DNA from: Moniliella sp. 'wahieum'
Lineage: Eukaryota
Direction of reading: 5' to 3'
Length of the DNA stretch: 64,000 nucleotides
NCBI GenBank assembly: GCA_003971905.1
Contig: RSEE01000020.1
Coordinates: 1-64,000 of the forward strand
A program made the position numbers and the translations under genes. This document shows positions 200 to 64,000 of this stretch, piece after piece (position 1 is the stretch's first letter; every line of letters starts with the position of its first letter). The notes under the pieces were generated by a model. It worked only from the letters and a program-made list of their open reading frames with translations, did not search any database and had not been told where the DNA came from.

Positions 200-325
200 A
201 AGCTTGAGCGCCTTGAAGCTGAGCCCCTTTAAGCTTCAAGCTTCATGTGAGGCTTCAAGTCAAGCTTCAAGCTTCAGGGGGGGATGGCGCCTCCCCGGCT
301 TCAAGCTTCAACTTCACGCTTCACG
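200..325. repeat. Cluster of AAGCTT(C/G) palindromic heptamer repeats upstream of the Sec14-like gene
   Basis: aagcttcaagcttca at 231-245 and 262-276, with further copies at 200 and 303. Confidence 0.85.
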
Positions 326-711
326 AAAGACATACGTCGACGTTCGGGCGTGGGACAGGCGGAGGCTGGGACGGTGGCTGCATGACGCATGACGAGTGCG
401 ATCGGTGATTGGTGATCTTTGGCACGGCGAGTGGCCCCGTCTGGCTGGGCGCTGGCTGGGCTTCGCGCTGACGCATGAGGGCAGTGTGCGGCGGGCGGCG
501 GCGGCTTGGCAGCGGGCGATGTGAGAGGTGATCGGAGAGCGGGCGTGCTGCGCTGAGCTGAGTCGCTGAGTCGGCGCGCCGAGGCGGGCGACTGCCGCTG
601 CGCCCGACCAGAGCCCGCGAGCCAGAGCCTAGCACACGCCACGGCCTGCTGCGGCCCCCCACGTACACGGGGCCTCGTTCTGACGCTGTCTCTCCTTCTT
701 GGCACCGCACC

Positions 712-3097
712 ATGTCCGCACTCCATCCCAGCCCCAGCATCGACAGCTTCTGCTCCGCCACGTCCCTCGCTCTCCCCGCCAGCGACCCGCCCGCCGCCCC
801 TCTGCCCCCTCTGCCCCCCCTCCCCCATGCCACGCCGCCCACGCCTCCGCCGCGCCGCCGCCCGCTCCGCGCCGGCCCCCGCCTCGCCCCATCCCGCTCC
901 GGACGGCTTGTCTCCCTCGTGTCCCAGCTGACCACCCCGGCTCGCGCTCGCCCGCTTCTCCTCCCCCGCCTCCTGCCGACCCCCTCGCCACTCTCTGCCC
1001 AAGCCGGGCTCGGACCCCGCTCCTCGCCAGCACCGGGTGGGTGCGCGGGCAGGCGGTCTTGCCCCCCTCTTCTGGAGCAGCGCATCTCGGCATTATCGGG
1101 TCCCATCCGAAGTCTCCTTGCCCGTTTTACGATCCCTTTGGCGGACGGCTGGTGCCGCTCCCTCGCTCGCCAGCCCGACGTCGCACACCTCGGCCTCGGT
1201 CCGTTCCGCGCGCTCGAACCGATCGCGCACTTCCCTCGCCTCGTTTCTCTGCCTTCTCCTTCGCTTCCTTCCGGCGCAAGTCCCGGCAGCGTCCAGCGCG
1301 CTTCCGCCCCGCCTCGCTGCCACCGCTGGCGCCCACTGCAGGTCCACCATCACCATCGCCTCCACCGCCGCGTCCATTCGGCATCGGCATCGCCCTCGCA
1401 TCTGGATCGGCATCGGTCTCTGCCGCGGCGCTGGCACCGGCCTCGGCATCCTCGCCTGCGCTCCCGGTCCCGCCCCGGACCACTGTACGCTGACGCGCGG
1501 CGGGAGCGGCGCAACGCGCTGTACGCCCGTGGGTGGAGGCCCGGTGGTGCATCGGCGCCAGTCGGCTCGTACCTCGGCCGAGCGCGAGACGCGCGCGACG
1601 GCACAGGCGGTGCTGGCTGCCGCGGGTGTACCAGTACGTGCCGCCCCACCCGACGGCATGGAAGGAGAGTGGTGACTACCTACACTATTCCCGAGGGCCA
1701 TGTGGGCAACTTGACCGCGGCCCAGAGACGGCGCTGGCGGCAGTCTCGTCTTGGGCCTCCACACTCAGGGGGAGCTGCGCCGTTCCCGACGCCGGCGGAC
1801 CCAGTGTATCCCGCTGCGGTGATCCGACGGACGCGGTGCCGGACCCGCCCCCGGCGCCTGCTGGGTGGAGCTAACGAACGCCGCCCGCCGCCAGCCGATG
1901 TCGAGGCGCGCGGCGGGCCGCCGTGTCTCGCGACGCAGCAACGTATCCACCTGCTTCGCTGGCTGCGTGCGCGCGTTGGAACGTGCCCGCTGCGATGGAC
2001 ATGTACCGCCGTGCGCATCGGTGGAAGTACATGTCGCCGGCGGATGCGAGTGCGGCGGCGATTGAGGCCGAGGTCGGGTGCCGCCGTTGGATTTGGAGCA
2101 CAGTTGGCCCATGGCTGGACCTGGTCCGAGGCTGGCTTTGTTGCCCCCCATGGCTGGCGCATGTATTTCCACAAAACCGACAAGCTCGGTCGTCCGATCT
2201 TGATCCAGGACCTGGCCCAGATCGATACTGCGGCCATCTTTGGGCGCGTGACGGGCAGAGATTGTGACCAACTTTGCTGTCACGCTCGAGGCGGCGATCC
2301 GGTACCAGTATGCGTGTGCGTCGGCGCAGGTGCCGCGCACGGTGGAGGACAACTTGATGATCATCAACGTCCAAGGCTTGGGGCTCAGCACGTTTTGGGC
2401 AATGAAGAACGAACTGCAGACGCTCCTGGCGCTGTTGGACAACAACTTTCCCGAGCTGTCGGGCCGCGTGCAAATCATCAATGCACCCTGGTGTTTGCCA
2501 CCATGTTCAATTACATCAAGGCCTGGCTGCCCGCCGCGAGCGCGACAAGATCGATATCAAGGGCAGCGACTATGCGCGCACACTGCGCGAATGGATCGCG
2601 CCCGACGCCCTGCCCCGCTCCTTGGGCGGCTCTTGCACGTGCGGCGACCATGCGTGTGCTGGGACGGCGCGCAGACCCAGCGCGCCGCCGCGGCCGTGTC
2701 CAGCGTAGCGTCCTTGGGCAGCGGCCTGGGCTCGGGGTCGTCGGGGTCGGGATCGGGATCGGGGTCGCGTTGCACTGGCCACGCCGCTGACGACACCAGC
2801 GCCTCGTCGGCCGCCCTGGCGGCCATGGGCACCGACACGGCCAAGGCCGGCACGCTGCCTGCCACCCAGTTTGAGACGCTCGCCTTGCCGCCCGTGCCGG
2901 GGGGGCTGTGCACGGTGACGAATGCCGGCCGTGGCCGCGGACGTATGGCGGGTACCAGCACCTGCGCTTTGGCCCGAGCTTGGTGGCGCACTGAGTGGGA
3001 GCACTGGAGGAGGAGGAGGAGAGGAGGAGGAGGAGGGTTGTGGTACTGGTACTGGCACTGGTGCTGGTACGGAGGATTGACGACGACGCACATATAG
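712..3097 (+). CDS. Sec14/CRAL-TRIO lipid-transfer protein with long low-complexity N-terminus (frameshifted)
   Basis: Motifs across frames: PEGHVGNLTAAQ, YFHKTDKLGRPILIQDL, NLMIINVQGLGLSTFW, LLDNNFPELSGRVQIINAP, DALPRSLGGSCTC, C-terminal GGC...GPW. Start and stop approximate. Confidence 0.85.
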
Positions 3098-3203: not shown

Positions 3204-3310
3204 GTCACATGTCACATGTCACATGTCACATGTCACATGCCCCTGACAGCCATCACATCACGTGCCACATCACATGTCGCATGGCGCATGTCACATGTCA
3301 CCTGTCACTA
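3204..3310. repeat. (GTCACAT)5 tandem array (ACATGT palindrome) plus degenerate copies upstream of adenylate cyclase
   Basis: Five perfect GTCACAT units at 3204-3238; more copies at 3270-3310 and 3447-3505. Confidence 0.9.
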
Positions 3311-4443
3311 GCTATCAACATATCCGGCGCATCCCACCCGGCCTCTCGGCCACGGCTGCTCTCCTCGACCGCATCCAAGCCCAAACGCCAGGCACCAGCC
3401 CCGCACCGCACCTGTGTGTGCGCAGCCGCCGCGGGGGCTGCCTGGCGCATGTCACACACGTCACAAGCGCCATGCCCCGCATGCATCACACATCACACGT
3501 CACACGCGGGCCCCCAGGCGCAGGCGCAGGCGCAGTGTGAGCTTCGCACGGGCGCCGGTGGCGGGGTGCTGCGTGCTGCATGCTGGGCTGGCCGGGGCGG
3601 AACCGCACCGCCCTGCACGCTGCACCCCCGCAGCCGCCTGGGCGATGCATGGGGTGGGTGCTCCCGTGCGGGTGTCACGTGGCATGCGTGGGCGCTGCCA
3701 CACCGCCCGCAGCCACGCGCGCCGGCTGGGCTGCCCAGCGCTGCCGCGCCACGCGCTGCCTGCCGCCACCTGCGAGGGGTCACGCGTCCGCGCCACCCGC
3801 CATCGGAGCACGCCGTCACCGCTCGCCCCCTCACGCGTGCGCGATGCGGCCGGCGCCATGCAGCGCTGCTGCTCTGCGCCTGCTGCGCGACAGCCGGCCT
3901 GGCACCGCGCGGCACCACCCACCCCACCACCCACCCACCCACACCTCCTGCCCGCTGCGCCTCCATCCTGCTCCGCCCGCCCCCCTGGTCTTGCGCCGCC
4001 CGCGCTCCTCCAGCTCCGCCACCCTCTCCCGCACCGCCCCCCCGCCCCCCCACGCCTCCTCCGCCTCCCTCGCCCCCTCCAGCGCCTCCGCCGGCACCCC
4101 AGCCCTGCCCCCCCCGCCGCCGCCGCCTCCGCCCCACCACACCGTCGCCCGCGCCGCCAAGCGCGGCGGCGGCACCATCCTCGCCATCCTCAAGCACGCA
4201 CCCACGCCGCCCACCCGTCCCCCGCTGCCTCCGACCACCCGTCCCCCGCCCCCGCCGCTGGCCCGCGCAGATCCAGGGCGCAGGCCGCGGCCGCGATCGC
4301 CGCCTCCGCACCCTGCCTCTGGCTGGTTCTGCCGCGGCGGGCCTCGCTTCGCCTCTGCCTCTGCTCTGCCTCCCGTCCGTCGCTCGTCCACTCCCATCAC
4401 GCGTACTCCTCCCCCGCCTCCACCCCCGGTAGCCCCAAAGCCC

Positions 4444-12239: not shown

Positions 12240-12399
12240 TGGTGGGCACAAGATCTGGCCTGAATCCAGCGTAGGCCGTTGTACGAGCGCGATGCGTGCG
12301 GCGGGCACGCTGCCGAGGCGAGGGGGGGATGAGGGGCTGGTGGAAGGCGAGAGATGTGGGGTTCTACTGGCTATGAGAGCCGCAGAAGGCTGTTTGGTT

Positions 12400-14812
12400 C
12401 CATTAATGTACATATAATACACGCACCAGAGCGTGGAGCCCTCTGGAGGTGTGCGGCTCTCACCGTTCCATTGGAACCAAGCAGCGTTGTGGACGCTCTC
12501 GGAGCCTACACAGCTGAATCCCCACCGCCTGATAGTACCATAGTGTATTGTTGCCGCCCCTGGTTCGGTGGCTGCGCCGCTTCTCCACATGTCCTTGCTC
12601 GCGCTACAGGCCCATGTGCTCAAGAGCCTGCTGCCTCCAGTCCCACTGCACCAACGAGATGATCCTGCCCGTGGCGTCGCGCAGGCCCACCCCTGCCTTG
12701 GTGGGAGTCAAGTGCAACGTCGGCGCACCCCTTTCGATTGGCGGCAAGGCGGCCCAGGCAGCCATGCCCTGCGACCCCGCTCCCTTTCCCACCTCCAACT
12801 CGGTCGCACACAGGGGGCCAGTGCGGGCCCAGTGGACCAAGACGGCCAGGTCCCATGGCAGTTGCCTTTGTGAGTGGCGGTAGCACGCACCGTCTGCCCC
12901 GCGAAGCAGAAGCAGGTTCCCCTCGCATTCGGCCCAATGCGTGTCGCCCCGTTGGATTTGACCATGCGGGTTGATAAAGTAGCCGTGGCTGACCCCCGTG
13001 GTGAATCCATCGATCCGCACCAGCTCGCATTGCGCCGATGCATGTTGAAAAAGGCATTGTAGTGTCGGAAGAGAACGAGGCAGCCTTTGCGGTACTGGAT
13101 GACCAGCGTCTCTGTCGTGCTGTCAACATGGATCCGATCAAAGCACAAGTTGGAAAGGGTGTCATCCTGTCCTATCACTCGTTAGCCCTGCCGCCCACCA
13201 TATGAAAACCAAAGGCAGGCAATCGGCTCACCATATCCTCATCCCACCTCTGGCACGATACTTGCATGGATCCATCTAGGGACGATGGGCCTGCAAATGT
13301 GACACGGCGCGCATAGGCTTCACTCCGGTGGGTGTGCCTTCCGGTGACAAGAGTCCCATGTGCATACTCCAAACCGCAGTTCCAGTGGCGGCCGAAACGG
13401 CGCGAATGTCCAGCTGGTCATGCCCCTGATGCACGAAAGGAACCGACACGAAAAAGAACGAGCCGTCAAACGCGACGCTCTCTCGTAACACACCCAGTCA
13501 GCCAGGTGATGGTCATAGTCATCCCTGTAGAACAATTCCGGCCAGACGCAAAACATGCACACACAATGTCAGAAAACACATCCGAACAGAGTGCAGCGAG
13601 AGTAGGGTGCAGATAGGTCTCCGCTAAGGAAAGAGAAAAGACGGGTTCGTACCGTTGGGCAGCTAAGGATATGCTTCGAAATGGCTGGGGTCCCAATAAC
13701 CCACCTGTTGCTTGTCTGAGGAGATGTTGAATATGGTAAATTTACCTTCGTCTTGAGAATTGACCGTGAAAAGGCTAACAGGACAATTGAAGGTCAAGCC
13801 GGTGTATAAGGCGGGTTAATATATCGGTACAGACAACAAAGCGCTGGAAACGAAAACTCATACCTGGATAGGAGGGGTGGAGCAAAAAGTCGGGCATTAG
13901 TAGCACATGGAACCGTGCACAGTTGTTTCAAGTGTCCTGAACGAGGAGGGTGCCCAAGCTTGGACGGAGGTATACTCGCTTCTGTTTGGAAGACGTAGGC
14001 TGGTTGCCCGCGACCATCAGCACACATGCAGATTTTTAGGAACAAACATTAATACCAATCATCAGACGCCCCTTCAAAAACATTTTGCCGGGAAAAGGGG
14101 GGAAAGGATCGTCATTACTCACATAGATGTTCAGAAAGGACACTCACAACTATGTTCCCCCACAGGCAAACGTATCGAGGGGTAAATTTGGTATTGGGGC
14201 AGTTGCGATTCTGATGTGCCCTCCATTGTCGAGTCGTATATGCTGTAAGCCAATCCCGCTCCTCAACCACCGATGGGGGGGCAAGAATGGTACCGTCAGG
14301 AAACTCAGTGACAAAGTCATTCTGAAGCGGCGTCATAGGTGGGGCCCCACTTCCAACGACAGTGTGGGGACGTTCGCGCGGATGGCAAAACGGAATGGTG
14401 CCAGAATCCGTTCCAACGCCAAGTTGCCGCGCCATAAGGTGATGGAACACTACCAGCCGGTCCCACGATTTGGGAGAATTGTGCACAGCCGGGGGTCCCA
14501 GGTATGAATGTCAAGGTCAGGCAGTTGCATTGGCGATTCTTCGGTGGATGGTGTACCCAGGTGCCACCGCCGAGCCAAGCGATGCCAAAGCGCGGGACAA
14601 GTGAGACGGCATGCCAGGCTGTTGAACATATGGCATGCGCGTATAGGATGAAAACTGTCAGCGGGCAAGTAATAAGAGAAAAAAACGATACAGGAACAAA
14701 GAGAAGAGAGGAGACGACGCACCACGACATGTGCGGCCGAGGCGCACAATCTCAGCGGGTGCCAACACACCCGATGCCGCGATTTCCAGGCGCAGTTCAA
14801 AGGCAGCAGCAT
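12400..14812 (-). CDS. F-box domain hypothetical protein (spliced, frameshifted)
   Basis: ATG at 14812 reads MLLP, then after a one-base shift ELRLEIAASGVLAPAEIVRLGRTCR, intron GTGCGT...CAG (~14722-14617), then AWHAVS, matching the F-box pattern LPxE..I...L...+.RxCRxW. Protein-like ORF pieces continue to ~12400. 3' end approximate. Confidence 0.55.
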
Positions 14813-23443: not shown

Positions 23444-24469
23444 GTTGAGAAAGCGGCAGGACGAACGAATCCAAAGGAGAGAGGGCTGAGAGGGGAGAGG
23501 CGATATGGGGGAATGAGCTGGGGGATATATAGACGAGAGTGCTTGGGGAAGGCATATATATAAGGTGAATCCACATGCAACACAGGGTGTAGCCTCGTGC
23601 AGGGCTCTCGTTCTACTCTCCGTACAACTAAAAAGCAGAGGAAGGTGCATGCCTCCGTGTGTCGCAGTGACATCCTGCTATAGGGTATCCGCCCTCAACG
23701 TTCAACAGGGGGTGTGGGATCTTCGCCAGGTCCCAAACGATAGAGAGTGCTCCCCAAGCCACACCGCGCGGGTGGCCGTATCCAGGTGCTAGTGAACAGC
23801 ACATGTGTTAGTTGGGTCGCACAGAGCTCCGCAATAGCGTATTATTCTATCCGAAAGAGTGTCTCCTAAGCAATGTGGGGCCCCTTCTGTGTGCCTCCAC
23901 AAAAGTTGCGCTCTGTGTAGGTGCAGACACAGCCAGGTAGCCAATGTCACATGTATAGGCCAGAGGGAACCACTAATAGTGGACGAGGGCTAAGGGGAAA
24001 AAAGGTGTGTGTGCTGTGCGAGTTCGTCCGCAAATGAGGCACAGAGCACGCCGATGTAGAGGTGCCAATACTATGTTGATGATGATAACAAGATGGAACC
24101 TAGTACTCTCTGCCTTATTGGCTACTCTCTGCTTTATGGCACCAAGCGTGCAATTGAAATCTAGAGCACAAGGGAAGAGGAGTGGCTGCTCAATGATTTC
24201 GCAGCTAGTACGTTCCCTACACCGGTAAAAAGCCGATCTCAAGCTCCAATTGGCAGCCTTCTCGAGCTCATTGCGGCCAGTGTATTGCCCTCGGCCCACG
24301 CACGTGCCAGAGGCACACGCTGTTGGTCGCACCAAGGCGCTCGAACTGACTGTACTGATAATTCGCTGTGGGTTTTTTGAAGAGTATACTCCATGCGCGT
24401 CACGCGCGCACCCCACACCCACGCTATACCTAGGTGTTCAACTTGAACGTTTAATATAGTGTGGTTTCA

Positions 24470-24660
24470 GCGCGTGTCACATGTCCGTACTTCAAGCTTC
24501 AAGCTTCAGTACGTTCTCCTCAACGATGACGGTCATCGACCGCCTGCCACGTAAACGGCAGAACTGTGGGGGTAGCCATCAGTACCAGTGTACCTGAATA
24601 TTGCGAAAGTCGCCTAAGGCCTAAGGCCTAATGGCCACAGTCATTAATCATTAATCGTCA
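24470..24660. repeat. Mixed palindromic heptamer arrays (ACATGT, AAGCTT, AGGCCT, ATTAAT)
   Basis: tgtcacatgt ~24475; cttcaagcttcaagcttcag 24490-24509; gcctaaggcctaaggcctaa 24612-24631; cattaatcattaatc 24642-24656. Confidence 0.9.
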
Positions 24661-27114
24661 CAGATGGCAAGGCACGGGGGCTCTCTGTAGCGGAGGGGGG
24701 AGGGGAGGAGTGGGATGTGCGTGTGACATGTGCATGTGAATGTGGTGTGTGATGCGTGGCAATATACAAACGATGGATAATGCCCTACACCCACAGTAAT
24801 CTCTACTCTTCCGCGTCGCTCAGGGCTGCTCAGGCGCTCAGGCCTCTAACCACCTCGACCCAATCGGTGGCAAACAGCAGCAAAATGCTCATGCAGCTCA
24901 TGCACATGGCGATTGCACATTCCACCCTTTGCCCCCTGCTCTCGATCCCACCCTTTGCCCTTCTTCTCCCGATTCCATGCAACATTCTGTTTTGTGAAGA
25001 ATCTCATTTAATACCGGCTACTCCCCGTCCAATATATCCACAAAATCGCCTTGTCGGGGTTTTAATAACCTTGCGGTTATATTGCGTTTTTGATGAAACG
25101 TATGTTGATGTTGGGACGTGATTTCCTTCAAGGGTTATGCTGTTACGTGGCGCTCGGGTTTTTATCTCCGGACACTGAGTCCTGTATGTCGTTTTGGCAT
25201 CTCTTCTAAACACACTTTCCAGTCCCGTTCGACTAGCGAGAGAGAGCCTGCGGACACATCCATGCTGCAGATATCATCAGCGGCCCGCCATGTTTGCTTG
25301 GCCAAGCTCATCGGTGCGATGCTTTGTGCTCATGGCGCCCACAGACTTGGCAGAACCTACTGTTACCTGCTAACCCTGATGCGCATCGTCAGCGCCGTTG
25401 AGTACGTCTTTACTTCACTGGAAAATTCCCCACATTATGCTTATATACCTGTCACATGTCATGAGGCAGTTTCCATCTGAATATGTTAGTAGCCTCTATT
25501 CGGGCTTGCTTGCTGTGGTGGCCTTATCGAACATCCTGTTTGTTAGAGGGTACTGCTAGGGTTCTCCTGCGCGGCCCTCAATGGATCGGTGACGCTCGCC
25601 TAGCCGAGCGGAAGCGTTCCGCTCGCAGGCCGCGCACGCCCTGCTCGCTCCATCTCCCTTCTCTCTCTCCTTTCTCCTTCCCTTCAGACGTTGCTTGAAG
25701 ACTTGTGCCTCACCACTTTGCCTTCACGCCTTGTCTGAAGGCTGCCTTGCAGCTGATCCATAGGATCGCGAGTGCTCCCAAGTCGCACTCTAGCACTGTT
25801 ACGCCTCTGTTACACCTGCTGCACCTGTTCACCTGTTCACCTTGTTACACCTGTCCCTGTTCCAACCTTTCCCCTTCTCCTCTCTCCCCCTTCCACCTAG
25901 CCAGGTTACTCTCACAGAAATACTAAGCGCTTTTGATCTTCATTAGGACTCCGTCTGATTCCGCCTATTACAGCGCGTTGAGTACTGAGTGTGGTAACGC
26001 GGTAACGCCCCTGGCCGTCTTACTCCGCAGAGTTCCTGGACCCCTTCAACTGGTCTGACGACCTACGTATGCTGCTCCCACCTCGGAGGGTCTGACCTTT
26101 GCACGCAGCAGCCATCTAAACTAGAGGGTCTCACCCTCGCATCTGCACCCTCGGTACGACCAGGATCGGAGGCCGGACATATCTTACGTGACTCCGATTG
26201 GCTGTCCAAGGTTTTTGGATCCCTAAACGACAGGTGTGGGTCCCACTTCTCGGGACTGATGATGCATCGCTATACTGTGGACCCAACAACAGGGGATGGA
26301 GCTTGGAGGTGGAACGTGTGGACCAAAGGTATTGTGAGGGACTCGGGTAGAAACAGGTTGCGCATAACCCGAAGGGATACATGAGGAGGTTACAACATCT
26401 ACAGAACGCGGGGAAAGGAGCTGAATCGACTGTTGCATGTTATTGCAGAGCAATAACCTGAATGCGACAAAGAAAAACACCAATGGTCATTAATTGAACG
26501 CCCGATGATCATCATCTGCATATCGTCATTGACAATCGTCTTCGCTATTCGCCACCTTTTTGCGTCAATACCTTTTGCGTCAATATACCTCGCTGCCTAC
26601 CCTACCACGACCGTGCCCTTCAAGCTTTTTAGCATACTGCTATGCAGTGTCTCTCGGCCTCTTTTGATACCGCGCCGGTGGCCGCGGCTGCGACGACCCA
26701 ACAGATGGCGGCGAGTCTTACTGACGGACGACGGAACTGGGGGTAGTACGTGGTGGCCATATAGTAAAGCTAGTGAAGCTTAAGCTTGAAGTGCCTAGTC
26801 GCCAGGCCACTCGCCCAGCCTGTCACATGTCACGCGGCGAATAGAGTTCCAGGTGCGGCAGGTTATCGATTACCTAATCGATAAGCAGCCGCTCCCCCCG
26901 TGCGATGCCGGCGGCCGCGGGCAGGTAGGCATGGCGCCGTGTGGGCAGGGCATGGAGCTGTGCGCTCGGCAGCCGCACGCACCCCCCACCACCCATCTGC
27001 CCCCGCCACCATCTCCCAGCCCGTCTCCGCCGCTCGCAGCCGCGCGATGATCGCCGCTGCTCGCCGCTGGTGATTCCCGCCGGCGTCTGCTTCTTCCCCA
27101 TCCACACCGCCGCC

Positions 27115-32797: not shown

Positions 32798-33017
32798 GGG
32801 CAGGACTCGTGACGAAGGGAGGCGGTGGTGGTTAGGTGGTGGTGGTGCAAACGCAAGAACACCAGGGTATGTATGTAGGTGCCTCATGGCCAGAAAAGTC
32901 ACATGGCCAGAACATTTCCGCATATCGGTGCAACTGGGCCACCTGAACCACCGGGGCGTAAACGCGTAAACGCCCTAAATATTAAATCTCGCTAAAGTGC
33001 TTGTCCCGCGAATCGTC

Positions 33018-33045
33018 CTTGAAGCTTGAAGCTTGAAGCTTGAAG
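33018..33045. repeat. (CTTGAAG)4 array (AAGCTT palindrome) upstream of URA3
   Basis: cttgaagcttgaagcttgaagcttgaag. Confidence 0.95.
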
Positions 33046-33570: not shown

Positions 33571-35059
33571 GTTGGGGCTGCCCTACACACCTACTCGAAA
33601 ATCTCTGCCGCTGATGCTCCCCGGATCCAGTGTGGACCCCCGTTTGGTATGACACTAGATGACTCTATAGACCTATTTGGGTCACACTATCGGCCTGGCT
33701 CACCGGCCCCGTCCTCCCATTGGCCCTCTGCTGAAGGAGGAGTAGAATGGAGGATGTGGTTCTGAGGAGATACATGAGGCTATGAGAAGGGTAGGGCCTT
33801 ATATAGCCGAGGATACCGCGGAGCTGAGGGAGCGCCCGGGCGGATAAGAGGAGTGATGCCTATCATATATCATGCAGGATGATGTGATTGGGGCATATCG
33901 CCCCGACACCATCCGCGGGAGCTGGACACAGACAACAGTTACAGAGAATGAGAGGGAAGGGCGTTGCCTGGCAGGTTAACGGTGGATTGACAAAGGATGT
34001 TGTACAAGGACGAAAGATGAGAGGAAGAGGCGAAATGTGGACGAGAAGACGAAATAGGCAAAAGCCCGCTAGGGGGAAAGGAGCATGGGTCAAAGGTTAT
34101 ACAGACAGTATCTATAATTGTATAGGGGATAGACAACACCATGAAGAAAGGAGAAATTAATCGAGATTAGTGGCTCCCACAGAAAGGAGCACAGGCCACC
34201 AAGTATTAGGGAAATGATCCCACATTCGGCCAGGCGGGAAATGAGAAAGGCGCCAGGAGAGAATCTCACTGCGAGAGAACGAGGTAGTGCACAGATCACA
34301 GGAAACTGAAGTCCAGATCCACGCGAGACGGGCAACCCGGATTTGGAAAGAAAGTGGAAGAGACGACTTTTGACGGGGAATCGGACCCACCATCTTCGGT
34401 ATTGTAGCCACGGATTTGCTTCTGACCAACACTGCACTATATTGATCCTGGGTGTGAGTGTCAATAGAGGAAGATTAACCATATATTGATTGACCTCCAA
34501 CAATCAGGAGGCTCAACTTTTGAAGAAGCTCACTTGCATCCACGACTAAAGACCAAACATAAAACGATGGGAACATGCTCCGTTTAGACAAACGGAGTGC
34601 ATGGGTTTGCTCTCAACTCTCAACGTTCAACGTTCAGACAAGCCATGTAGAAGACCAGAGGACAGGCAGTTGGTAGTGAATTGCATTTTGCACATGAGCT
34701 ACAGAGGCTAGAGAATATTCCTGCCAGCCAGGAAGGAATATTGCACGGAACAAACCAGAAGGTTCCGGACTTGGGCTACCGGCGCCACTACACCAGTGTG
34801 GCGTCACAAGCCAACCTAGTCTTGACGTAGTATTAACGCCCAGGAAGAGCTCAAAGAGCAGCAAATGGGAATGGTGGTCGATGGAGATCAAATTGCTAAG
34901 GCGGTGGCGAATCCAAGTCATCATGGAGTCGGAAACGCCACGTCAGAAAACATCACACGCGCATCACACATGATGTCACTCGGAAGTGACCTTGGCCATA
35001 AATGACCAGAGGTCAACAGACCCATAATCCAGGCAAGGCAGGAGGGAATGGGAGAGGAT

Positions 35060-35890
35060 GGGCTCGGCCACCTCGGCCACCTCGGCCATTGCCTGGGACA
35101 TGTGGCACGTGTCATGTGACAGAAGCCACTGGCTACGCCTGTGTGGCATGCGACGCGTGACGTATAGACGAGAAGCCGCGCGGCCGGAAGACGATCGATG
35201 ATCGATGATCAATATTGAGATGCAGGCCGCGGCCTACCGCGGACGGAGGTCTAGTAGGGCAGAGTTAGAGCCTACCGGCCCTAATTTGTTGACCGGTGCC
35301 GGTGATTCCGGTGACTAGTGACTAGTGACTACTGAACGTGAACGTGAACGTTGAACGTTGCACGTAACTGAGCGGACTGAACCAGTGTTCATCGATCATC
35401 GAGCAGATCTAGAAAGAATGGGAAACGAAGGGCGATCGCCAGCATATGTCCGGCGGACATTACTGAGAGGGTGTTAGTTTTCAGTATCGGGGGTGCTTCT
35501 CAGCAGTAGTACACTGCCCTGGTGCCTCTGGCCAAGACCAACCGTGGTAACTAGAACTAGTACCTAGCAGGTCGTTACCTTAGGGTTAGGCCTGCTATTA
35601 GATCTTCACGCTTCAACCAACTAGTCTCTGGTCGCCGTCACGCGTGACGCCTGAGGCTGAGGAGGATGCCGCGGCTTTTGATATCTGAAACTGGCCGGGT
35701 GCCCGCTAGCCACACTCTCCAAACTCCGGACCCCGGCTTCAAGCCCGCGGCCGAAGACTAGCAGCAAAACCCTAGGCCCAGTGTTGAAGCTTCAAACGCC
35801 ACGCTCTGCCACGCTCTCACTGTGTGACATGAGTAATCGAATCGAGAATCATTAATCGATAGTCATCGCGCGCCTAGTCATCGATCATCC
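35060..35890. repeat. Dense mosaic of palindromic heptamer arrays upstream of the PDR transporter
   Basis: gatcgatgatcgatgatc 35193-35210; (gtgacta)3 35311-35331; tgaacgttgaacgttg ~35345-35360; also accggt, acgcgt, aagctt and attaat units. Confidence 0.85.
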
Positions 35891-40655: not shown

Positions 40656-41571
40656 AATGACTCTATCTTGCTTTTCCCCTCCTTCGTCTCGATTTGCTTT
40701 TCCCTTTATCCCTTTGACTACGTCACATTTTCCTACTATCTCTCTCTCCTTTAATAAACTGTGGCACTATAATGTCGCCCCCCGTACCATTTGATGTCGT
40801 GTTACTACTGCATAAGTGTAGCATAAAACTGTTGGTTAGGGACGCTTCTCCGCTGTTGCTTCACTGGGTCTCTAACACTTCGCGTCGCGTTCACGCATCG
40901 CATTCGTGTGCCGTCTGCTGGGCACATATTCCACATTCAGTTCATTCCATGGCTTTTCGTGGAGCAGCAATAAAATGTTGCCGATAATTCGACGGTTAGC
41001 TTCCTCCCATACCGGGTCTGCCATTATACTATTACCTGTGAGTTTGTGGTGCCGTGGAACAGGATATTCTCCGACGAGCAGTCTACAGGAGAGGTGGCCA
41101 GTCGGTCGGGCACAGAGAGCGGGATTGAGGGTACGAGTGAAGCGAAATGCGGAGTGGTGGTGGAGAGGCAGAACACCAACTGCAGAGAAAGAGGACAGGA
41201 AAGGTGGGCGCGCGCGCGCAGCGCGAGCTAGCATGAGTATGAACGGGCCTTCGTGCCCTAGAGTCAAGGCACCAGCCTAGGCTATCTATATCACCCGACG
41301 TCACACAGTGTCACTAGTTCACTCTGCCAGTAGCCCTGTGACTGGTCAGTGTAACCAGTGACAGCACTGGTCACTGGTCACCGGTCACCTGGTCGCGTCT
41401 GTGCATGTCACGCGTCAACATCGAGATCATCCACCATCAATCATCCATCATCCAGCCGATAGCAGGTGCAGGTTCCCGCTTCCACTTCTGTTCGCACCAA
41501 GCCTTCCTCCAGAAAAACTGGTATCACCACCCCTCAGTCCAAGCCATGTTGGTGACGTCACGTCCTTCAAT

Positions 41572-44413: not shown

Positions 44414-44729
44414 GCCGACGACGACGATGGGGGTGGGAGGAGCAGCTGGAGGGAAAGAGAAGCCCGCAGACCTTCAGCTGGTTCGCAGCTTGCCTGCTGG
44501 GACCAAACCAGGCCGCACAAGGACAGTGTACGTCAAATCTTGCCGCAGCATACTCAGAACTAGGGTTAGACGTAGTATATTAGGTAACGTGTTCAGGGGC
44601 CCCACCTTGACGTTTCCATTTCTCGATTCGAGGAACCGCCTCGCAGGCGGCCTCTGCGTGCCTACCAGGCTCTACCTCAGTCTCCCCTCATGCCTCGGTC
44701 TCAGACCTCAGGGTCTGCTCAATATACCT

Positions 44730-44830
44730 GAGCCTCAGGCCTGAGAATGGCCTCAATCCTCACTAGCTCACTAGCGCTCACTAGTCACTAGTCACTGGCA
44801 TCACTACTGTAGTCACTTACTCAGCTTGAC
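44730..44830. repeat. ACTAGT/AGGCCT palindromic heptamer cluster upstream of STM1
   Basis: cctcaggcctgag ~44733; tcactagtcactagtcact 44778-44796. Confidence 0.85.
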
Positions 44831-45588: not shown

Positions 45589-45598
45589 TCGTGTGCTG

Positions 45599-45865: not shown

Positions 45866-45869
45866 AAAG

Positions 45870-46083: not shown

Positions 46084-47143
46084 TTATGAACTCTTTTCCT
46101 CCTTCAGTCACCGGCGACCCAGGACGGCCACACGAAGTTTGAGCACCGGAAAAGTCTTGCTGAGAGGAGTCTCATAAGAGATGGTTCATCGCTCACACGT
46201 GTTTACCGCGCTCATTCACACCCACTCGCGCTGCATCCAGCCCCCTCACACTCTTATTCACGTCTGCGGCATCAGAGTGAGCTGGCTACATTGGCACATG
46301 CTCTGCCTGAACACCTCTCCATTGCATTAACGGTTTCCGTTCCAGTCCAATACAGTATAATAGCAAAAGGATGTGGCAGCCGACCTGTGGATGAATTAAC
46401 CACCGGGGGCTGTTACCAGTGACTGGAAAGAAAGTCCTGCTCAAAACTTGAATGAGTTGATTCTCCGTATGATGTTCAGCATGCTTGTGCCAGTCCCAGT
46501 ATAACATGTTTGCTATATATGCACCACAGGCTATACACGGCAGCAGTAGGCTAATATCATTATAGAGTCTGTGGGCCTTTGAGATCAGAGAGCCACAGGG
46601 CGGCTCGTGCGTTTGGCCCAAAATGTGAACTTCGGTCACTAGCTCATACAGTCTCAGATCTCACAGCAAAGCGTTCATTGCGGCAGAGGATGTGTGTTGG
46701 AGGCATATGAGCGGGAGGATGTGTCTCAAAATGGGACTGGCTGTCCCAACAGGTCAACTGGTACAAAAATGAGACAAATCGCATGCATCACACCTACTGA
46801 TATTCCAATGGGGCGCCGCCTATCGATCGTCTATCATCCATGCATCATGCATCGCACATCGACAATCCGCGCACGCACTGCCCCCCTGCCGCCACCCCGC
46901 CAGCCCAACTGCCCGCACGGCGTCACTGTGTGCGCCTAAAGTACGCTCGCATGTCAGGCACTGGCGCTGTGCCCAGGCGGGCCCAGCAGTGCTCCGAGGG
47001 CACCTGAGCGCCTGAGCCTCGACCACGCCCGCTCCCTGATGGCCGCATAAAAGGCCTGCACGCCGCCATCTGGCCCTCTTCTTTCTCCCACCACCGCCTG
47101 CCTTCATTCCTGCGACGCCGGAAAACGACACACAGCATCTGCA

Positions 47144-56037: not shown

Positions 56038-56773
56038 TTTCTCTTGAAAGGACGCAGGTGGGGCAGATGAAGAGAAAATATTCGCTGAGACCGCTTCCTC
56101 TCGGGTGTTGTTTTCAACACTGATACTGATGTAGGCAACGCCCACAACTGAGTGATTGGTGGTGAAGGTGGTATGTGCAGAAAACGAAAAGAGAAAAGGG
56201 ACTCGCGCCCACGAAGAGAAAAGTCAGATATATATATATGGAGAGAGACTCTTCTGATTGCCAACTGACAGCAGAGGGAGAGGACAATATCACGGCAACA
56301 GCCACTATACTGCAGAGGGAAGTGTCGTGAGGCAATAACGGTGACTCAGAAGATTGGTAGTGGCTTCTGAAAGCCTGTAAGTCCTGAAGCTGTATGGCGC
56401 GAGATAATCGATAACAGACAAAAAGTGCTCTTCTCTTCGATCATCGTTATCGATTTCTCGATCATTACCGTGTCAGCGAATATAGGCGGTGCGTTACGCT
56501 ACACGCGTATGAAATAGATGTGGCATTTTACGCACATTCGCATACATCCACTTGTACTTCTCTCGTGCGCATGCAGTATCCCTTCTTTTTGAATCCATAT
56601 CATTGACAGAGCTTATATCCCTTCTTTTCGTATGCATGCAGAGATTGAAAAGCTCCTCTCAGATCTCATTGGCCCCTGGACAGATATATAATGTACGTAG
56701 TATTAGTATTAGTCGCCTTTGCCCAACTATATGGCCTACATATTATTGTAGAGTGTGTTAGGCGATATATGTT

Positions 56774-56865
56774 TAAGGCCTAAGGCCTAAGGAGTGTGGA
56801 GTAAGAGCTAAATACAGAGTTGGCTCTCAAACGTCATCGATATAGGGTGTGACATGTGACGCGTG
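56774..56865. repeat. AGGCCT and ACATGT palindromic heptamer arrays in the divergent region between permease and tRNA-Ile
   Basis: taaggcctaaggcctaagg 56774-56792; gtgtgacatgtgacgcgtg ~56847-56865. Confidence 0.85.
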
Positions 56866-57082: not shown

Positions 57083-57178
57083 GGTCGATTAGCTCAGTTG
57101 GTCAGAGCGTGGTACTAATACATCCGCTACGGAGTATCGGTTATGCCAAGGTCATGAGTTCAAGCCTCATATTGACCA
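57083..57178 (+). tRNA. tRNA-Ile(AAT) with 22-nt intron (57121-57142)
   Basis: GGTCGATTAGCTCAGTTGGTCAGAGCG-TGGTA-CT-AAT-A[intron]A-TGCCA-AGGTCATGAGTTCAAGCCTCATATTGACCA, followed by a T-run. Confidence 0.95.
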
Positions 57179-60500: not shown

Positions 60501-60709
60501 AGAAAGAGCTGCTGTCAGATGACGATCCCACTGCCCTAGTAGGCCAACACGCGGTGCACGTGCGGGAGAAGGCAGAGCTGGTGCGAGCTCACCAGGAGGC
60601 TCTTTCCGCTGTGGAGCGTGACCTTGTCAAGGAGAGGGAGGAGAAACAGGCCCTTTTGGCCAAATTGCGGGTCTTGGACCGCTCTGAGGAAGGAGCGACG
60701 GAAGCATAA
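57578..60709 (+). CDS. Hypothetical protein: Pro/Ser/Thr-rich disordered N-half and long Glu/Lys/Gln-rich coiled coil; intron 60361-60427; frameshifted
   Basis: ORFs 57302-59224 and 59681-60709 with heptad-rich sequence (EEVNRLQSELAGAKETIASLTDEKE...). Confidence 0.8.
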
Positions 60710-61446
60710 ACTTGCCCCCCCAGGCTGGTAGTCGTTATTATACTCTTTTTTTTTCCCAAAGCCTGTCCCTCCTGTTCCATCAAACCGCTATACAGCCGCT
60801 TGGGGAGGCGGTCAGCGCACCTTCCGAAGATCTCAATCACCCCTCTTCGTTTGGATAAAACTCTTCGTTTTGGTACGTGGCAGCCGCAGGCAAAGCGTCT
60901 GGGCTTGGTGCTAATACACTGTCTTTTCTTCTCATCAAACAGGTACCTGCAAGAAACCACTTTGATATGAGGTGGGGGAACTAGCGCTTCGTAGCCCATT
61001 ATTGAATCAACGTCCTATTCTGCGGTGAACTAGTAGCTATGCAATAGAAGCGGGGGGGGGAGGAGGATACTATCGGGACCTGTGGTCCCCTACGGTAGAC
61101 GAACGCGCCTTACGAGGCCACGTAACCCTTATCATTTAACACTCTTTTATCCCCTCTTTCACCCCCGAAACCTTCACAATTCACTACCCTGTGTTCAAAC
61201 CCTATCTCTGCCACTACGTGTACGCGTGGTGCATGAGGCTCTCGTCGACCTGGTCAATGTACCCCTACCATATGACCTTGACACTGCTCTACTTCTCCAG
61301 AGAGCCCCCCTTGACGCACCAGGGGTTCCCTGGACACGAAAATGAGATCAGACAAATAGATTGATTGAGTGTAGGATACATGTATACTGATGAAACTGGC
61401 ATTTGGTGCGTTACCGGGTGCACCATAAAGAGATGGCTCATCGTGT

Positions 61447-63059
61447 TCACGCCAGGGCGGTAGCGTTGTTGAAAGCAAGGGCGTTCGGGCTGCCCTGCGT
61501 CAACCAGAGCGTCCTTGGTAGCAAACTTGATCAGGGCCTTCTTCAGGTCCGATGGGTGGAGGACGGAAACAACCGTCTTCTTCGGCGTGGGCGAGAGCGA
61601 CTCGACGAGCCATTCAAGTGCGGCCACAGGCATGGGCGCCGACTGGAGGGCACCGCTGACCTCACGTAGGGCCGAGGCAATGGTGCGCTGCGCCTGTTGC
61701 TCAGCCAACTCGTCAAGCGACGTGACCGGCAGCGGATCCTCGAGCACAACAAAGTCCTCGGTGCCATAGATACTAAGGAGGTAGGCCAGCAGGCCTACCG
61801 TGTGAGGGGTGGCCATGGAGGTACCAGACAGAATCGCAGTCGCATCCTTCCACGTGTTCCAGGTGGACTTGATGTTAAGGCCAGGGGCAAAAATGTCGAC
61901 GCACGACCCCTTGTTTGAGAAGTAGGCACGCTTGTCCGACACATCCGATGCGCCCACCGTCACAGGGAGCGATGCGCCCGCAGGCGAAGTCCAGCATGCA
62001 TCCGAGTTCTCATTGCCCGCCGCGACAGCAAAGTGGAGACCCGACGAAACAGCACCATTGACAGCAGCGTCGAGCGTGGGCGACTTGCCACCGCCAGAGA
62101 CATGTTGGCAACAAAGCCCTTGTGCTTCTTGCGTGTTGCCGGGTCCTTCGACGCAAGCTTGGCACTGATCTCCTGTGCGTCCTTCACAGCCCAGAGAACC
62201 CCCGCCGTCACATCCGACATGGTGCCACTGCCCGAGGAGCGGAGCACCTTGACGGCAACCAAGTCGGCGTTCTTGGCAACACCATACGTCTTGCCACCAA
62301 TGGTACCAGCACAGTGGGTGCCATGTCCGTTGCCGTCCTCATCCGGGTCACCATAGGGAATGGTCTTGCCCCAGCGGGCGCGGCCCTCAAAGTCGGTGTG
62401 GTGAATGTAGACACCCGTGCTGAGGTCGTGTTAGCATGCGCTGCTCAAGCTGCGGGGCAAGGAATAAGAACGTACTCAATGATGTAAGCTGTCACACCGG
62501 CTCCCGCCGCCTCGTCGTAAATGTAGTTGTTGAATGTGCCATAGCCGAGCTGGTCGCGGTGGGAAATGCGAGCCAAGCCCCAGGGGGCATCCTTCTCGGT
62601 GAGATGCTTGTGGTCTTCGACGATGACCTTCTCGGGCATGACCTGGGTCTTGACAATCGAGTCGCGCTCCACGTACTCAACCTCGTCCTGCGCACGAATG
62701 AACGCCAGCACATCGTCGGTGAACTGCCCCGAGTAACCTTGGAGGTGGCCCTCCAAGTCGTACACGTGGCGAATGCCGTGCTGGGCTGAGGAGAGCGTTG
62801 AATCCATAGTAGGCGTTGGCGGCCTCTTGCGCCGAAGCAATCGTGTCCTGGTGCGCCAGGAAAGAGCTGGCAGAGACGCCCTTGAGCTTGACAATGTAGT
62901 TGTCCGGCACCTCGCCCAGGTGGCCTTCAGCGCTCTTCAGTGCGGCAGGCACAACCGACGCGTCTTGGATTGTTGCGCCGGGCACAAAGCGGGGCTTGGG
63001 GGGCGCGCGGTGGCCACAGCGGCCAGGGCAAGGCCGACGGCGGTCGAGAGCAGACGCAT
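61447..63059 (-). CDS. PRB1: Vacuolar subtilisin-like serine protease (proteinase B/cerevisin) with signal peptide and I9 propeptide; intron ~62474-62420
   Basis: MRLLSTAVGLALAAV signal; VPDNYIVKLK...VEYVERD propeptide; APWGLARISHR; DGNGHGTHCAGTIGG; VAVKVLRSSGSGTMSDV; VDIFAPGLNIKSTW; LSGTSMATPH. Confidence 0.95.
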
Positions 63060-64000
63060 GCTGGTGGACGAAGTAGAGAAAGGAGAGGCAGAGAGGGAGG
63101 AGGCAGTGGGTGGGTGGCCTAGGCAGGGATGGGGCCGCTAGGGGGGAAAGCAGGCTGCGATGGACAGGGGGTATTTAAGGGCAGGCGAGCGCTGGCTTAT
63201 CGGCGCGATAATCGATAACGGTCTGTCCTGCCTCTCCTCTATCGATATCGTATCTCCACAGCACGAACGGCAGTGGCGATAGCCGGTGCTGTCGCCACCG
63301 CCTGCCACACAGGCCACGCCATCCCCGCCCTCTGCCCTCTGCCCCGTGGGTGTCCCCAGGCAGGGCGCCAGTGCTGCGGGATAATGACGTCACGTCGCTG
63401 TAACGCGCAGGGTGGGGAGGCCGGGGGGGGCAGTAGTCATAGTATGACTCGATCGATCGATCATCGGCCAGAAGCAGTAGCCTCAGTGGCTAGGGAGGCA
63501 GGGGGCAGTGTGTGATGCTTGGTGGCTGATGCAGGTGCGATGGCGCCAACCCGGCTCCTAGATCCGTCCCACTGGGGGGCACCAACAGCTGCGCGCCAGC
63601 ACTGCTCCAGCCGCCTCCCGCGGGCTCCCGCTGGCTCCTGCTCTGGGATCTGAGACGGTTTCTTAGGCCCTGCGCTCTCCTGCAGCCACCCAAGCCACAG
63701 TTGAGCTGAGGCCGGCTTTTTAGCACCAGGCTCTCTGGTGTGCGCGCGACGAGATAAGATCTGGGATCAATCGATCACGCTAGCTTACTCCTGTGTGCCA
63801 TTTGACTGATATCGATTAGATAACTCCCTGTAGCGTTGACCCTTTCCTCCGATCTCCCATCCTGTCTCTTGGCCACCACCTCCCGCCTCGCCATCTGGCC
63901 GGCACCTCCATCCTCATCTCCTCCTACAACCGCAACTATAGTACACACTCGCGCTGCATTCCTCCGTGCAAGCAGAATCATCGGCAGTCATATAGCACTC

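What the first reader, a model, noticed from the sequence alone, without database searches (positions are those of the whole stretch)
200..63780. Upstream-region 'palindrome+1' heptamer arrays: fixed geometry, variable sequence
Seen: short tandem arrays (2-5 copies plus decayed halos) of 7-bp units of form A-X-Y-Y'-X'-T-N. Examples: AAGCTTc (231-276, 24490, 33018), ACATGTc (3204, 26822, 56850), AGGCCTa (24612, 56774), ATTAATc (24642), ATCGATg (35193), ACTAGTg/c (35311, 44778), AACGTTc/g (34620, 35345, 43105), ATGCATc (46839) and ACCGGT-like (41365). At least eight different cores share the same period, the same A...T ends and a T-N-A junction, so each array has two interleaved symmetry axes. 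They lie 5' of genes (Sec14, CYR1, GYP7, URA3, PDR, STM1, kinase, permease, PRB1). I saw none in coding regions or in the convergent 3' gaps (12240-12400, 31255-31927, 60709-61447). Inference: one transcription-factor motif or ordinary slippage would not give conserved geometry with free core sequence. Candidates are a promoter-localised mutational process (template switching or hairpin-opening repair at breaks in open chromatin) or a structure-read promoter code (cruciforms, nucleosome exclusion, symmetric methylation sites). I do not know a described system matching it.
Basis: partly seen in the sequence, partly recalled or inferred. Interest (0 to 1): 0.82.

Follow-up and report, generated by a model that had tools for sequence, protein, structure and literature searches.

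The report
Seven-base palindromic insertion scars in promoters
The DNA upstream of genes in this smut-related fungus is peppered with 7-base insertions at T-any-A sites, part direct and part mirror-image copies of the neighbouring bases, which look like repair scars left by a cut-and-paste jumping gene rather than a promoter code.

Summary
18 of 33 exact period-7 tandem runs have the unit A-XYY'X'-T+N, against 0.08 expected from shuffles. No run uses a palindrome with other end bases.

The free core has a simple source: it is copied from the flank. Where two same-N TNA triplets lie 4 bases apart, the filler is a direct and/or inverted copy of the two bases outside the TNAs in 49 units, which form 34 loci after two phase artefacts are dropped. 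Fewer than 1 unit is expected. Only a 4-base filler is enriched.

Each event is therefore a 7-bp insertion centred on TNA. My best reading is excision scars of a flank-hairpin cut-and-paste transposon, or a related nuclease, with a 7-bp staggered target nnTNAnn. One hairpin overhang is kept as 2 P-nucleotides and the other is trimmed. Repeated hits build the arrays.

All 34 loci lie in 16.2 kb of intergenic DNA that holds a gene's 5' end. None lies in genic DNA or in the 3'-3' gaps.

No transposon was found in the window, so the agent is inferred. The scan saw the same pattern earlier in other pieces of this genome. A selected "promoter code" is not needed.

The parts
229..325 (.). Cluster upstream of the Sec14-like gene. 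AAGCTTC arrays: TNA-AGCT-TNA units at 236, 260-276 and 301. A non-palindromic 7-bp duplication CTTCACG x2 at 312-325.
   Evidence: ID, DI+ID, ID, DD
380..394 (.). Pure 7-bp duplication CATGACG x2 centred on TGA (class DD).
3204..3308 (.). ACATGTC array between Sec14 and CYR1, with decayed copies: 5 TCA units at 3205-3235 and a further unit at 3291-3300.
3484..3506 (.). CATCACA x2 (DD) followed by a variant unit, about 80 bp upstream of the CYR1 ATG at 3580.
23693..23706 (.). Single event TCAAC-GT-TCAAC (DI), upstream of the P-type ATPase gene.
24490..24508 (.). AAGCTTC array, 3 TCA units.
24612..24631 (.). AGGCCTA array, 3 TAA units.
24641..24656 (.). ATTAATC array, 2.3 copies.
25450..25461 (.). 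Single event TGTCA-CA-TGTCA (ID).
25979..25990 (.). Single event TGAGT-AC-TGAGT (DI).
26821..26832 (.). Single event TGTCA-CA-TGTCA (ID).
32976..32987 (.). Single event TAAAT-AT-TAAAT (DI), just upstream of URA3.
33018..33045 (.). AAGCTTG array, 4 exact copies.
33861..33872 (.). Single event TATCA-TA-TATCA (ID).
34610..34636 (.). Compound array of TCTCAAC x2 (DD), then GTTCAAC and GTTCA (DI, ID), giving the AACGTTC units.
35193..35210 (.). ATCGATG array, 2.6 copies.
35311..35365 (.). ACTAGTG array abutting a TGAACG(T) array. The latter mixes periods 6 and 7.
35389..35402 (.). ATCGATC, 2 copies (DI).
35643..35656 (.). Class II unit cgTGAcg|ccTGAgg. Both inner dinucleotides are inverted copies of the outer flanks. 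The model does not explain this.
35878..35889 (.). Single event TCATC-GA-TCATC (DI), just upstream of the PDR ABC-transporter ORF.
41365..41389 (.). ACTGGTC/ACCGGTC array.
44699..44712 (.). Class II unit tcTCAga|ccTCAgg.
44778..44796 (.). ACTAGTC array, 3 TCA units, upstream of the STM1-like gene.
46652..46663 (.). Single event TCTCA-GA-TCTCA (ID).
46839..46853 (.). ATGCATC array, 2.1 copies. The outer TNA triplets are degenerate. Upstream of the kinase gene.
56403..56414 (.). Single event GATAA-TC-GATAA (ID).
56657..56668 (.). Single event TCTCA-GA-TCTCA (ID).
56774..56792 (.). AGGCCTA array, 3 TAA units.
56848..56859 (.). Single event TGTGA-CA-TGTGA (ID).
63207..63218 (.). Single event GATAA-TC-GATAA (ID), upstream of the PRB1-like subtilase gene.

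Best explanation
The heptamer arrays are mutational scars, not motifs. In the notation used here, l2 l1 are the two bases left of the T-N-A, r1 r2 are the two bases right of it, and a prime marks the complement.

Shown: each elementary event turns a site l2 l1 T N A r1 r2 into 14 bp, that is, two copies of the 7-mer centred on T-N-A. The inner dinucleotide of one copy is usually replaced by the inverted complement of the neighbouring copy's outer dinucleotide, giving [l2 l1 TNA l1' l2'][l2 l1 TNA r1 r2] or its mirror image. This automatically produces the 6-bp palindrome A-XY-Y'X'-T with a free core, period 7, a T-N-A junction and two symmetry axes.

Inferred mechanism:
1. A cut-and-paste DNA transposon, or a transposase-like nuclease, makes cuts staggered by 7 bp around T-N-A and so duplicates nnTNAnn.
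2. On excision it leaves covalently closed hairpins on both flanks.
3. A host nuclease opens them about 2 nt from the tip, giving 4-nt self-complementary 3' overhangs.
4. Two non-complementary 3' overhangs cannot both be kept in end joining. One is retained (2 P-nucleotides) and the other is removed (loss of 2 nt), so the net gain is always 7 bp.
5. Opening at the tip gives a plain 7-bp duplication.

Each event doubles the target. A palindromised unit reproduces itself whatever the repair outcome, so repeated hits grow exact arrays. Restriction to 5' intergenic DNA would come from insertion into open promoter chromatin, together with selection against +7 frameshifts in exons.
For: - Geometry and specificity. 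18 of 33 exact period-7 runs are of the A..T palindrome+1 kind, against 0.08 expected. None has other end bases.
- Flank-derived cores. There are 88 same-N TNA-4nt-TNA sites, against 37.4 in shuffles. The 26 unstructured ones match the expected 28.7. All the excess is structured: ID 15 (0.16 expected), DI 13 (0.14), BB 13 (0.04), DD 6 (0.25; 4 loci after two phase artefacts are dropped).
- Fixed length. In a scan of filler lengths 0-12, only 4 is strongly enriched (88 against 36.9, z = 7.7). Length 11, which equals two units, gives 54 against 37.
- A 7-bp rather than 5-bp stagger. Plain 7-bp duplications centred on TNA occur at 314, 383, 3486 and 34613, inside or next to the array clusters.
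- No sequence requirement beyond T-N-A. N is C 21, G 8, A 6 and T 1 in 36 chains, close to the local background of 69% C or G. The flank positions show no consensus.
- Natural-DNA control. In 780 kb from 80 metagenome loci, ID+DI+BB make up 12 of 943 same-N sites, against 41 of 88 in the window.
- Location. 34 of 34 loci lie in 16.2 kb of 5'-bearing intergenic DNA. Clustering is mild (11 neighbour gaps of 100 bp or less against 6.5 expected, P = 0.03).
- Literature, passages read. Flank hairpins opened by host nucleases and joined by end joining leave palindromic P-nucleotide footprints for hAT, Transib, RAG and a MULE (PMC5499845; PMC5873905). hAT7 and Kyakuja transposons of Basidiomycota make 7-bp target duplications (PMC12730594).
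Against: - No transposon, terminal-inverted-repeat element flanked by TNA-type duplications, or transposase domain was found in the 64 kb (Pfam on 186 ORFs of at least 130 aa). The agent is inferred only from its scars.
- The stereotypy is far greater than reported for Ac/Ds, where 128 events gave 28 footprint types (PMC5873905).
- The junction palindrome is even (l1'l2'|l2l1). Ac/Ds footprints are centred on the complement of the base next to the element, so canonical hAT chemistry does not fit.
- Two class II units (35645 and 44701; 0.09 expected) are not produced by the model.
- The predicted product with both overhangs trimmed (TNATNA) is not enriched (46 against 37.9).
- The T-N-A-centred target of hAT7 or Kyakuja is not documented in what I read.
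- Neither paper passage mentions Ustilaginomycotina.
- No reads or second strain could be examined, so no event was seen in a before-and-after state.
Confidence: 0.5

Rival explanations
1. The same kind of scar, but from an element with a 5-bp target duplication (nnTNA) plus 2 P-nucleotides, as in Transib/RAG-type excision. This is the reading given in earlier notes of this scan.
For: ID and DI units are exactly a 5-bp direct repeat plus 2 inverted bases. Transib makes flank hairpins (PMC5499845, passages read). That Transib makes 5-bp duplications and blunt hairpins, which would give even palindromes as seen here, is recalled knowledge.
Against: - The target would be asymmetric, with TNA always at one end and the P-nucleotides always at the other end. 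The mirror product nnTNA-TN'-nnTNA does not stand out in the unbiased scan, where 54 of 85 hits are of the TnA-first kind.
- The model does not produce the plain 7-bp duplications centred on TNA (4 loci against 0.25 expected).
- Under a uniform rule of opening 2 nt off the tip, the trimmed flank would lose the N-A of its TNA. That is not seen.
Confidence: 0.15
2. An endogenous process independent of any transposon. A host nuclease, for example a domesticated transposase acting at open promoters in meiosis or during transcription, cuts around T-N-A with a 7-nt stagger and hairpin ends, and repair writes the scar.
For: No mobile element was found in the window. The density is very high: 34 loci among 835 TNA sites in 16.2 kb. 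The product is extremely uniform. The loci are strictly confined to promoters.
Against: No candidate enzyme was identified, and I know of no precedent for such a nuclease. A low-copy transposon elsewhere in the genome explains the same data. A 64-kb window is a small sample in which to expect a copy.
Confidence: 0.13
3. Scars of a PIF/Harbinger-type (PHIS) element with a 3-bp TNA target duplication. The 4-base filler would be added by short templated synthesis from the flanks during repair.
For: T-N-A with any N is a documented PHIS target: NuwaII uses C|TNA|G and PIF/Harbinger uses TWA (PMC4482050, passages read). NuwaII occurs in fungi according to that abstract.
Against: - The flanks show no C before or G after the TNA. 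Position l1 is G 25, A 17, T 15 and C 15 of 72.
- A filler of exactly 2+2 bases copied from beyond the duplication has no described mechanism.
- The simple product TNATNA is not enriched (46 against 37.9).
- Fillers other than 4 bases are not enriched.
Confidence: 0.07
4. The arrays are selected cis-elements or a structure-read promoter code (cruciforms, nucleosome exclusion, symmetric methylation).
For: They occur only in 5' intergenic DNA. The arrays are quasi-palindromes that could extrude. They create ACGT, CATG and similar cores that many transcription factors read (recalled knowledge).
Against: - The core is copied from whatever two bases flank the TNA. 12-13 of the 16 possible cores occur.
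- Single events have exactly one matching flank, which is the mark of an insertion.
- Non-palindromic 7-bp duplications at TNA belong to the same clusters.
- No conservation data exist.
Confidence: 0.07
5. Replication slippage or polymerase template switching (including polymerase-theta-type templated insertions) at quasi-palindromes, or an assembly artefact.
For: Once two copies exist, slippage can change copy number. Templated inverted and direct insertions are known products of alternative end joining (recalled knowledge).
Against: - Slippage does not create the inverted dinucleotide or demand T-N-A. No arrays with G..C, C..G or T..A ends were seen (0 of 33 runs).
- Templated end joining gives variable lengths, whereas only +7 is enriched here.
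- An artefact would not avoid 45 kb of genic DNA.
Confidence: 0.05

Closest known systems
Excision footprints of flank-hairpin cut-and-paste transposons (hAT such as Ac/Ds and Hermes, Transib, MULE Muta1) and V(D)J coding joints with P-nucleotides
   Same: Both target-duplication copies are retained. Short inverted (palindromic) additions are templated by the flank. There is a matching loss on the other flank. The break is joined by end joining after a host nuclease opens the hairpin (PMC5873905; PMC5499845).
   Different: - The duplication here is 7 bp and centred on T-N-A.
- The junction palindrome is even, not centred on the complement of the element-adjacent base as in Ac/Ds.
- The product is almost invariant (+7, 2 P-nucleotides) rather than a spectrum.
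- The density is about 2 loci per kb of promoter DNA.
- The scars are chained into arrays.
- No element was seen.
hAT7 and Kyakuja (KDZ) DNA transposons of Basidiomycota
   Same: They make 7-bp target site duplications and occur in basidiomycete fungi. hAT7 groups with the Ac/Tam3-type hAT elements, which excise through flank hairpins (PMC12730594, passages read; supplement Table S1 searched).
   Different: They are described from Pucciniales (hAT7) and Agaricomycotina (Kyakuja). The terms Ustilag, Tilletia and Malassezia do not occur in the supplement, and Ustilaginomycotina does not occur in the main text. Their target consensus and footprints are not given in the text I read. No homologue was found in the window.
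NuwaII and PIF/Harbinger (PHIS) transposons
   Same: The target is centred on T-N-A or T-W-A inside a longer symmetric site (PMC4482050).
   Different: They make 3-bp duplications. NuwaII needs a C before and a G after the TNA, which is not seen here. They give no known 7-bp product.

Membership tests
Transposon excision footprint (flank-hairpin type) | Both copies of a fixed-length target duplication are retained at an empty site. | tested here: met
   Duplicated 7-mers or 5-mers centred on or ending at TNA: 49 structured units against fewer than 1 expected. Only the +7 spacing is enriched.
Transposon excision footprint (flank-hairpin type) | Palindromic (P-nucleotide) bases at the joint, templated by the adjacent flank. 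| tested here: met
   In ID, DI and BB units the inner dinucleotide is the inverted complement of the neighbouring copy's outer dinucleotide (41 units).
Transposon excision footprint (flank-hairpin type) | An element of the family, with the same duplication length and target, is present in the genome or at polymorphic sites. | tested here: not met
   None was found in the 64-kb window. The whole genome is not held, so this is untested genome-wide.
Transposon excision footprint (flank-hairpin type) | The empty, occupied and scarred states of one site are observed. | not testable with these tools
   No second strain, no relatives and no reads were available.
Canonical hAT (Ac/Ds-type) footprint | 8-bp target duplication with the nTnnnnAn preference. 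| tested here: not met
   The period is 7, and T and A are 2 bases apart. The nTnnnnAn consensus is recalled, not taken from a call.
Canonical hAT (Ac/Ds-type) footprint | Palindromes centred on the complement of the base next to the element (odd hairpin). | tested here: not met
   The joint palindrome is even (A l1' l2' | l2 l1 T) and both TNA copies keep the same N (47 of 58 cores). The defining feature comes from PMC5873905.
NuwaII (PHIS) target | C|TNA|G target with a 3-bp duplication. | tested here: not met
   Position l1 is C in 15 of 72 cases. TNATNA is not enriched.
Ordinary microsatellite (slippage) | Unit sequence is unconstrained, and many periods and unit types occur. | tested here: not met
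   18 of 33 period-7 runs obey one rule, and none has other palindrome ends.

The most novel reading that the evidence does not exclude
The scars are written by something not yet described. It could be a new transposon lineage or a host (domesticated) nuclease that cuts open promoters with a 7-nt stagger centred on T-N-A and leaves blunt hairpins. It would be a dominant, promoter-specific mutational process in this fungal lineage that continually creates palindromic heptamer arrays, some of which are then used as regulatory or structural elements.
Probability: 0.2. Interest if true: 0.85.

Novelty: new variant of a known kind. Interest (0 to 1): 0.6.

Why it matters
If the reading holds, this genome carries an unusually dense and clean natural record of one DNA break-and-repair reaction. 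About 4% of the T-N-A sites in promoter DNA are scarred (34 of 835).

Such a record would allow three things to be read directly from sequence:
- the target rule of the agent;
- how hairpins are opened and which end is kept in a basidiomycete;
- how promoters acquire new palindromic sites and short tandem arrays.

It also gives a precise search image for finding the responsible element: a 7-bp duplication of nnTNAnn. It warns that "motif-like" promoter repeats can be purely mutational.

Tried and rejected
- Whole genome of the window: not held.
- Public sequencing runs for window 26001-36000: none was listed. No read-level confirmation or polymorphism test was therefore possible, and read laying was not used.
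- Look-alike stretches in other genomes of the scan: none.
- Metagenome scan with a PDR-transporter alignment: 80 loci, the best only 64% identical on a 1.8-kb contig. No close relative was found, so the loci served only as a natural-DNA control.
- Search for an element with inverted termini flanked by 7-, 5- or 3-bp TNA-type repeats: 3 weak hits, none convincing. General inverted repeats gave nothing transposon-like.
- Pfam on 186 ORFs of at least 130 aa: no transposase.
- The dispersed repeat 45478-45821, which matches 33463-33570 and 49721-49919, was aligned to look for +7 indels between copies. None was found.
- My codon-usage exon finder was too weak to give intron coordinates, so intron length is not quantified.
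- Predictions of my model that were not borne out. A product keeping both overhangs (TNA-pal4-pal4-TNA) was found 0 times, which the 3'-overhang argument expects. TNATNA is not enriched. No events with a 1-nt offset were seen among the 7 '-D' units.
- Only 2 of 5 complementary-N cores have a matching flank.
- Literature searches found no paper describing T-N-A-centred 7-bp scars or palindromic heptamer arrays in fungi. These searches cover only the held open-access library.

Full report
**What the window is.** It is GC-rich nuclear DNA of an intron-bearing fungus (50-70% GC). Pfam hits on ORFs show these genes:
- a Sec14-like gene;
- an adenylate cyclase with LRR, PP2C and cyclase domains;
- a P-type ATPase;
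- a RabGAP;
- URA3;
- a PDR-type ABC transporter;
- an STM1-like protein;
- a kinase;
- a forkhead factor;
- an amino-acid permease;
- a subtilase.

A 502-aa ORF of the ABC transporter is most like proteins of Ustilaginomycotina. The nearest named hit is Tilletiaria anomala at 56%, and the best hit overall is an unnamed record at 75%. The whole genome is not held.

**The observation.**
- An exact scan finds 33 period-7 runs of at least 14 bp with a primitive unit. In 18 of them the unit is a 6-bp palindrome with A..T ends plus one base. None of the 33 uses a palindrome with C..G, G..C or T..A ends.
- In 100 dinucleotide shuffles made in 2-kb blocks, the mean is 4.7 runs in all and 0.08 of the A..T kind.

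**Where the free core comes from.** The unit can be rewritten as T-N-A plus a 4-bp palindrome.
- There are 58 T-N-A/pal4/T-N-A cores in 45 chains. The two N are identical in 47, complementary in 5 and otherwise different in 6.
- After seeing earlier notes of this scan on other pieces of the same genome, I classified every same-N TNA-4nt-TNA site by how the filler relates to the two bases outside each TNA.
- There are 88 such sites, against 37.4 in shuffles. The unstructured class has 26, against 28.7 expected, so it is pure background.
- The whole excess is structured. The classes are:
  - ID: first half of the filler is the inverted left flank and second half is the direct left flank. 15 units, 0.16 expected.
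  - DI: the mirror case. 13 units, 0.14 expected.
  - BB: internal units of arrays, where both readings hold. 13 units, 0.04 expected.
  - DD: both halves direct, a plain 7-bp duplication centred on TNA. 6 units, 0.25 expected. Two of the six are phase artefacts inside the ATTAATC array, leaving loci at 314, 383, 3486 and 34613.
  - II: both halves inverted. 2 units, 0.09 expected.
- Single events have a matching flank on one side only, for example GATAA-TC-GATAA at 56403 and 63207.

The core is therefore not chosen. It is copied from whatever lies next to the TNA. This explains why 12 of the 16 possible 4-bp palindromes occur among the structured loci, and 13 with the TGCA array.

**Fixed length and target.**
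- In a scan of filler lengths 0-12 between same-N TNAs, only 4 stands out (88 against 36.9, z = 7.7). Length 11, which equals two units, is the next (54 against 37).
- The central base is C 21, G 8, A 6 and T 1 in 36 chains. TNA sites of the same intergenic DNA are 69% C or G, so any N is accepted.
- No consensus appears at six positions on either side.
- As a natural-DNA control, 780 kb from 80 metagenome loci hold 943 same-N sites, of which 12 are ID, DI or BB. In the window it is 41 of 88.

**Location.**
- With approximate gene ends, all 34 structured loci lie in 16.2 kb of intergenic DNA that contains at least one 5' gene end.
- None lies in 45.2 kb of genic DNA.
- None lies in 2.6 kb of putative 3'-3' gaps, where 5.4 would be expected at the 5' rate (P = 0.004).
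- Absence from exons is expected for a +7 insertion. Absence from introns and 3' gaps points to a promoter bias of the process itself. I could not measure intron length, and there are no transcript data.
- The loci are mildly clustered.

**Mechanism.** A 7-bp insertion made of direct and inverted copies of the immediately adjacent bases is the signature of break repair with hairpin ends.
- Earlier notes read it as a 5-bp duplication plus 2 inverted bases. I find a symmetric reading fits more of the data: a 7-bp staggered target nnTNAnn.
- After excision both flanks carry hairpins. Opening 2 nt from the tip gives 4-nt self-complementary 3' overhangs. Two such overhangs cannot both be kept, so one is retained (2 P-nucleotides) and the other removed (minus 2). 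This gives ID or DI and a net gain of exactly 7.
- Opening at the tip gives DD.
- Opening 4-5 nt away would give a complementary N in one copy together with a matching flank. This is seen in 2 of the 5 complementary-N cores, at 35638 and 44735.
- A palindromised unit reproduces itself under any of these outcomes, and each event doubles the target. Arrays therefore grow as exact heptamers.
- The steps up to "7-bp insertion copied from the flanks at TNA" are shown by the sequence. The hairpins, the 2-nt opening and the transposon are inferred.

**Comparison with what is known.**
- Passages of PMC5499845 state that hAT, Transib, RAG and the MULE Muta1 form hairpins on flanking DNA, that host enzymes such as Artemis may open them, and that end joining leaves footprints.
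- Passages of PMC5873905 describe Ac/Ds footprints as deletions plus palindromic P-nucleotides centred on the complement of the base next to the element. They report 28 footprint types in 128 events, and Pso2 as a hairpin-cleaving enzyme in yeast.
- The scars here differ in three ways. The joint palindrome is even, both TNAs keep the same N, and the outcome is nearly invariant. Canonical hAT chemistry is therefore not met, and a blunt hairpin as in RAG/Transib fits better (the blunt hairpin is recalled knowledge).
- PMC12730594 (passages; supplement searched) describes hAT7 families in Pucciniales and Kyakuja elements in Agaricomycotina. Both make 7-bp target duplications, so a 7-bp stagger has precedent in Basidiomycota. 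Ustilaginomycotina is not mentioned there, and I saw no target consensus.
- PMC4482050 documents T-N-A targets for PHIS elements (NuwaII C|TNA|G). The C/G flanks are absent here, and a 3-bp duplication product is not enriched.

**What speaks against the reading.**
- No element, terminal inverted repeats with TNA-type duplications, or transposase domain is present in the window.
- The two II units are unexplained.
- The uniformity is unusual for end joining.
- No before-and-after pair of any site could be examined: no relatives, no genome and no reads.
- A host nuclease acting at promoters therefore remains a live and more novel alternative.
- A selected promoter code is not required and is disfavoured by the flank-derived cores, though co-option of some arrays cannot be excluded.

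**Novelty.**
- Six literature searches found no description of T-N-A-centred 7-bp scars or of palindromic heptamer arrays in fungal promoters.
- The scan itself had noted the same pattern in five other pieces of this genome.
- I rate it a new variant of a known kind, namely excision-type footprints. It is notable for its density (34 of 835 promoter TNA sites), its regularity and its still unidentified agent.

Noticed in passing
window 45478-45821, 33463-33570, 49721-49919, 46279-46357: A dispersed low-copy repeat. 45478-45588 matches 33463-33570 at 82%. 45599-45821 matches 49721-49919 at 78%. A shorter third copy lies near 46313. No Pfam hit, no terminal repeats and no +7 indels between copies. 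Its nature is unknown (a small gene family or an old mobile fragment).
   Followed up: partly
window 57083-57178 (+) and 45062-45150 (-): Two tRNA genes lie in scar-bearing intergenic regions. The first passes Rfam at 52.5 bits, and ARAGORN calls it Cys with anticodon ACA. The second is called only by ARAGORN, as Glu CTC and apparently with an intron.
   Followed up: partly
window 12400-19433 (- strand): About 7 kb of long minus-strand ORFs (for example 16358-17749 and 17416-18327) with no Pfam hit at E <= 1e-5 and a local GC dip to 50% at 14-16 kb. This is one or two large genes of unknown family.
   Followed up: no
window 26852-26895: A 44-bp near-perfect palindrome built from two opposed TNA-TCGA-TNA units, TTATCGATTA-CC-TAATCGATAA. 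It may be two scars in inverted orientation or a larger hairpin-derived duplication.
   Followed up: no
window 35333-35365: The TGAACG(T) array mixes periods 6 and 7 (TGAACG x3, then TGAACGT x2) and directly abuts the ACTAGTG array. The period-6 units are not explained by the +7 model.
   Followed up: no
window 50423-50489 and 27143-27187: Long exact hexamer arrays of a different kind: CAGGTG x11 inside a minus-strand ORF, and CCCCCT x7.5 near the start of the RabGAP gene. They are unrelated to the TNA rule.
   Followed up: no
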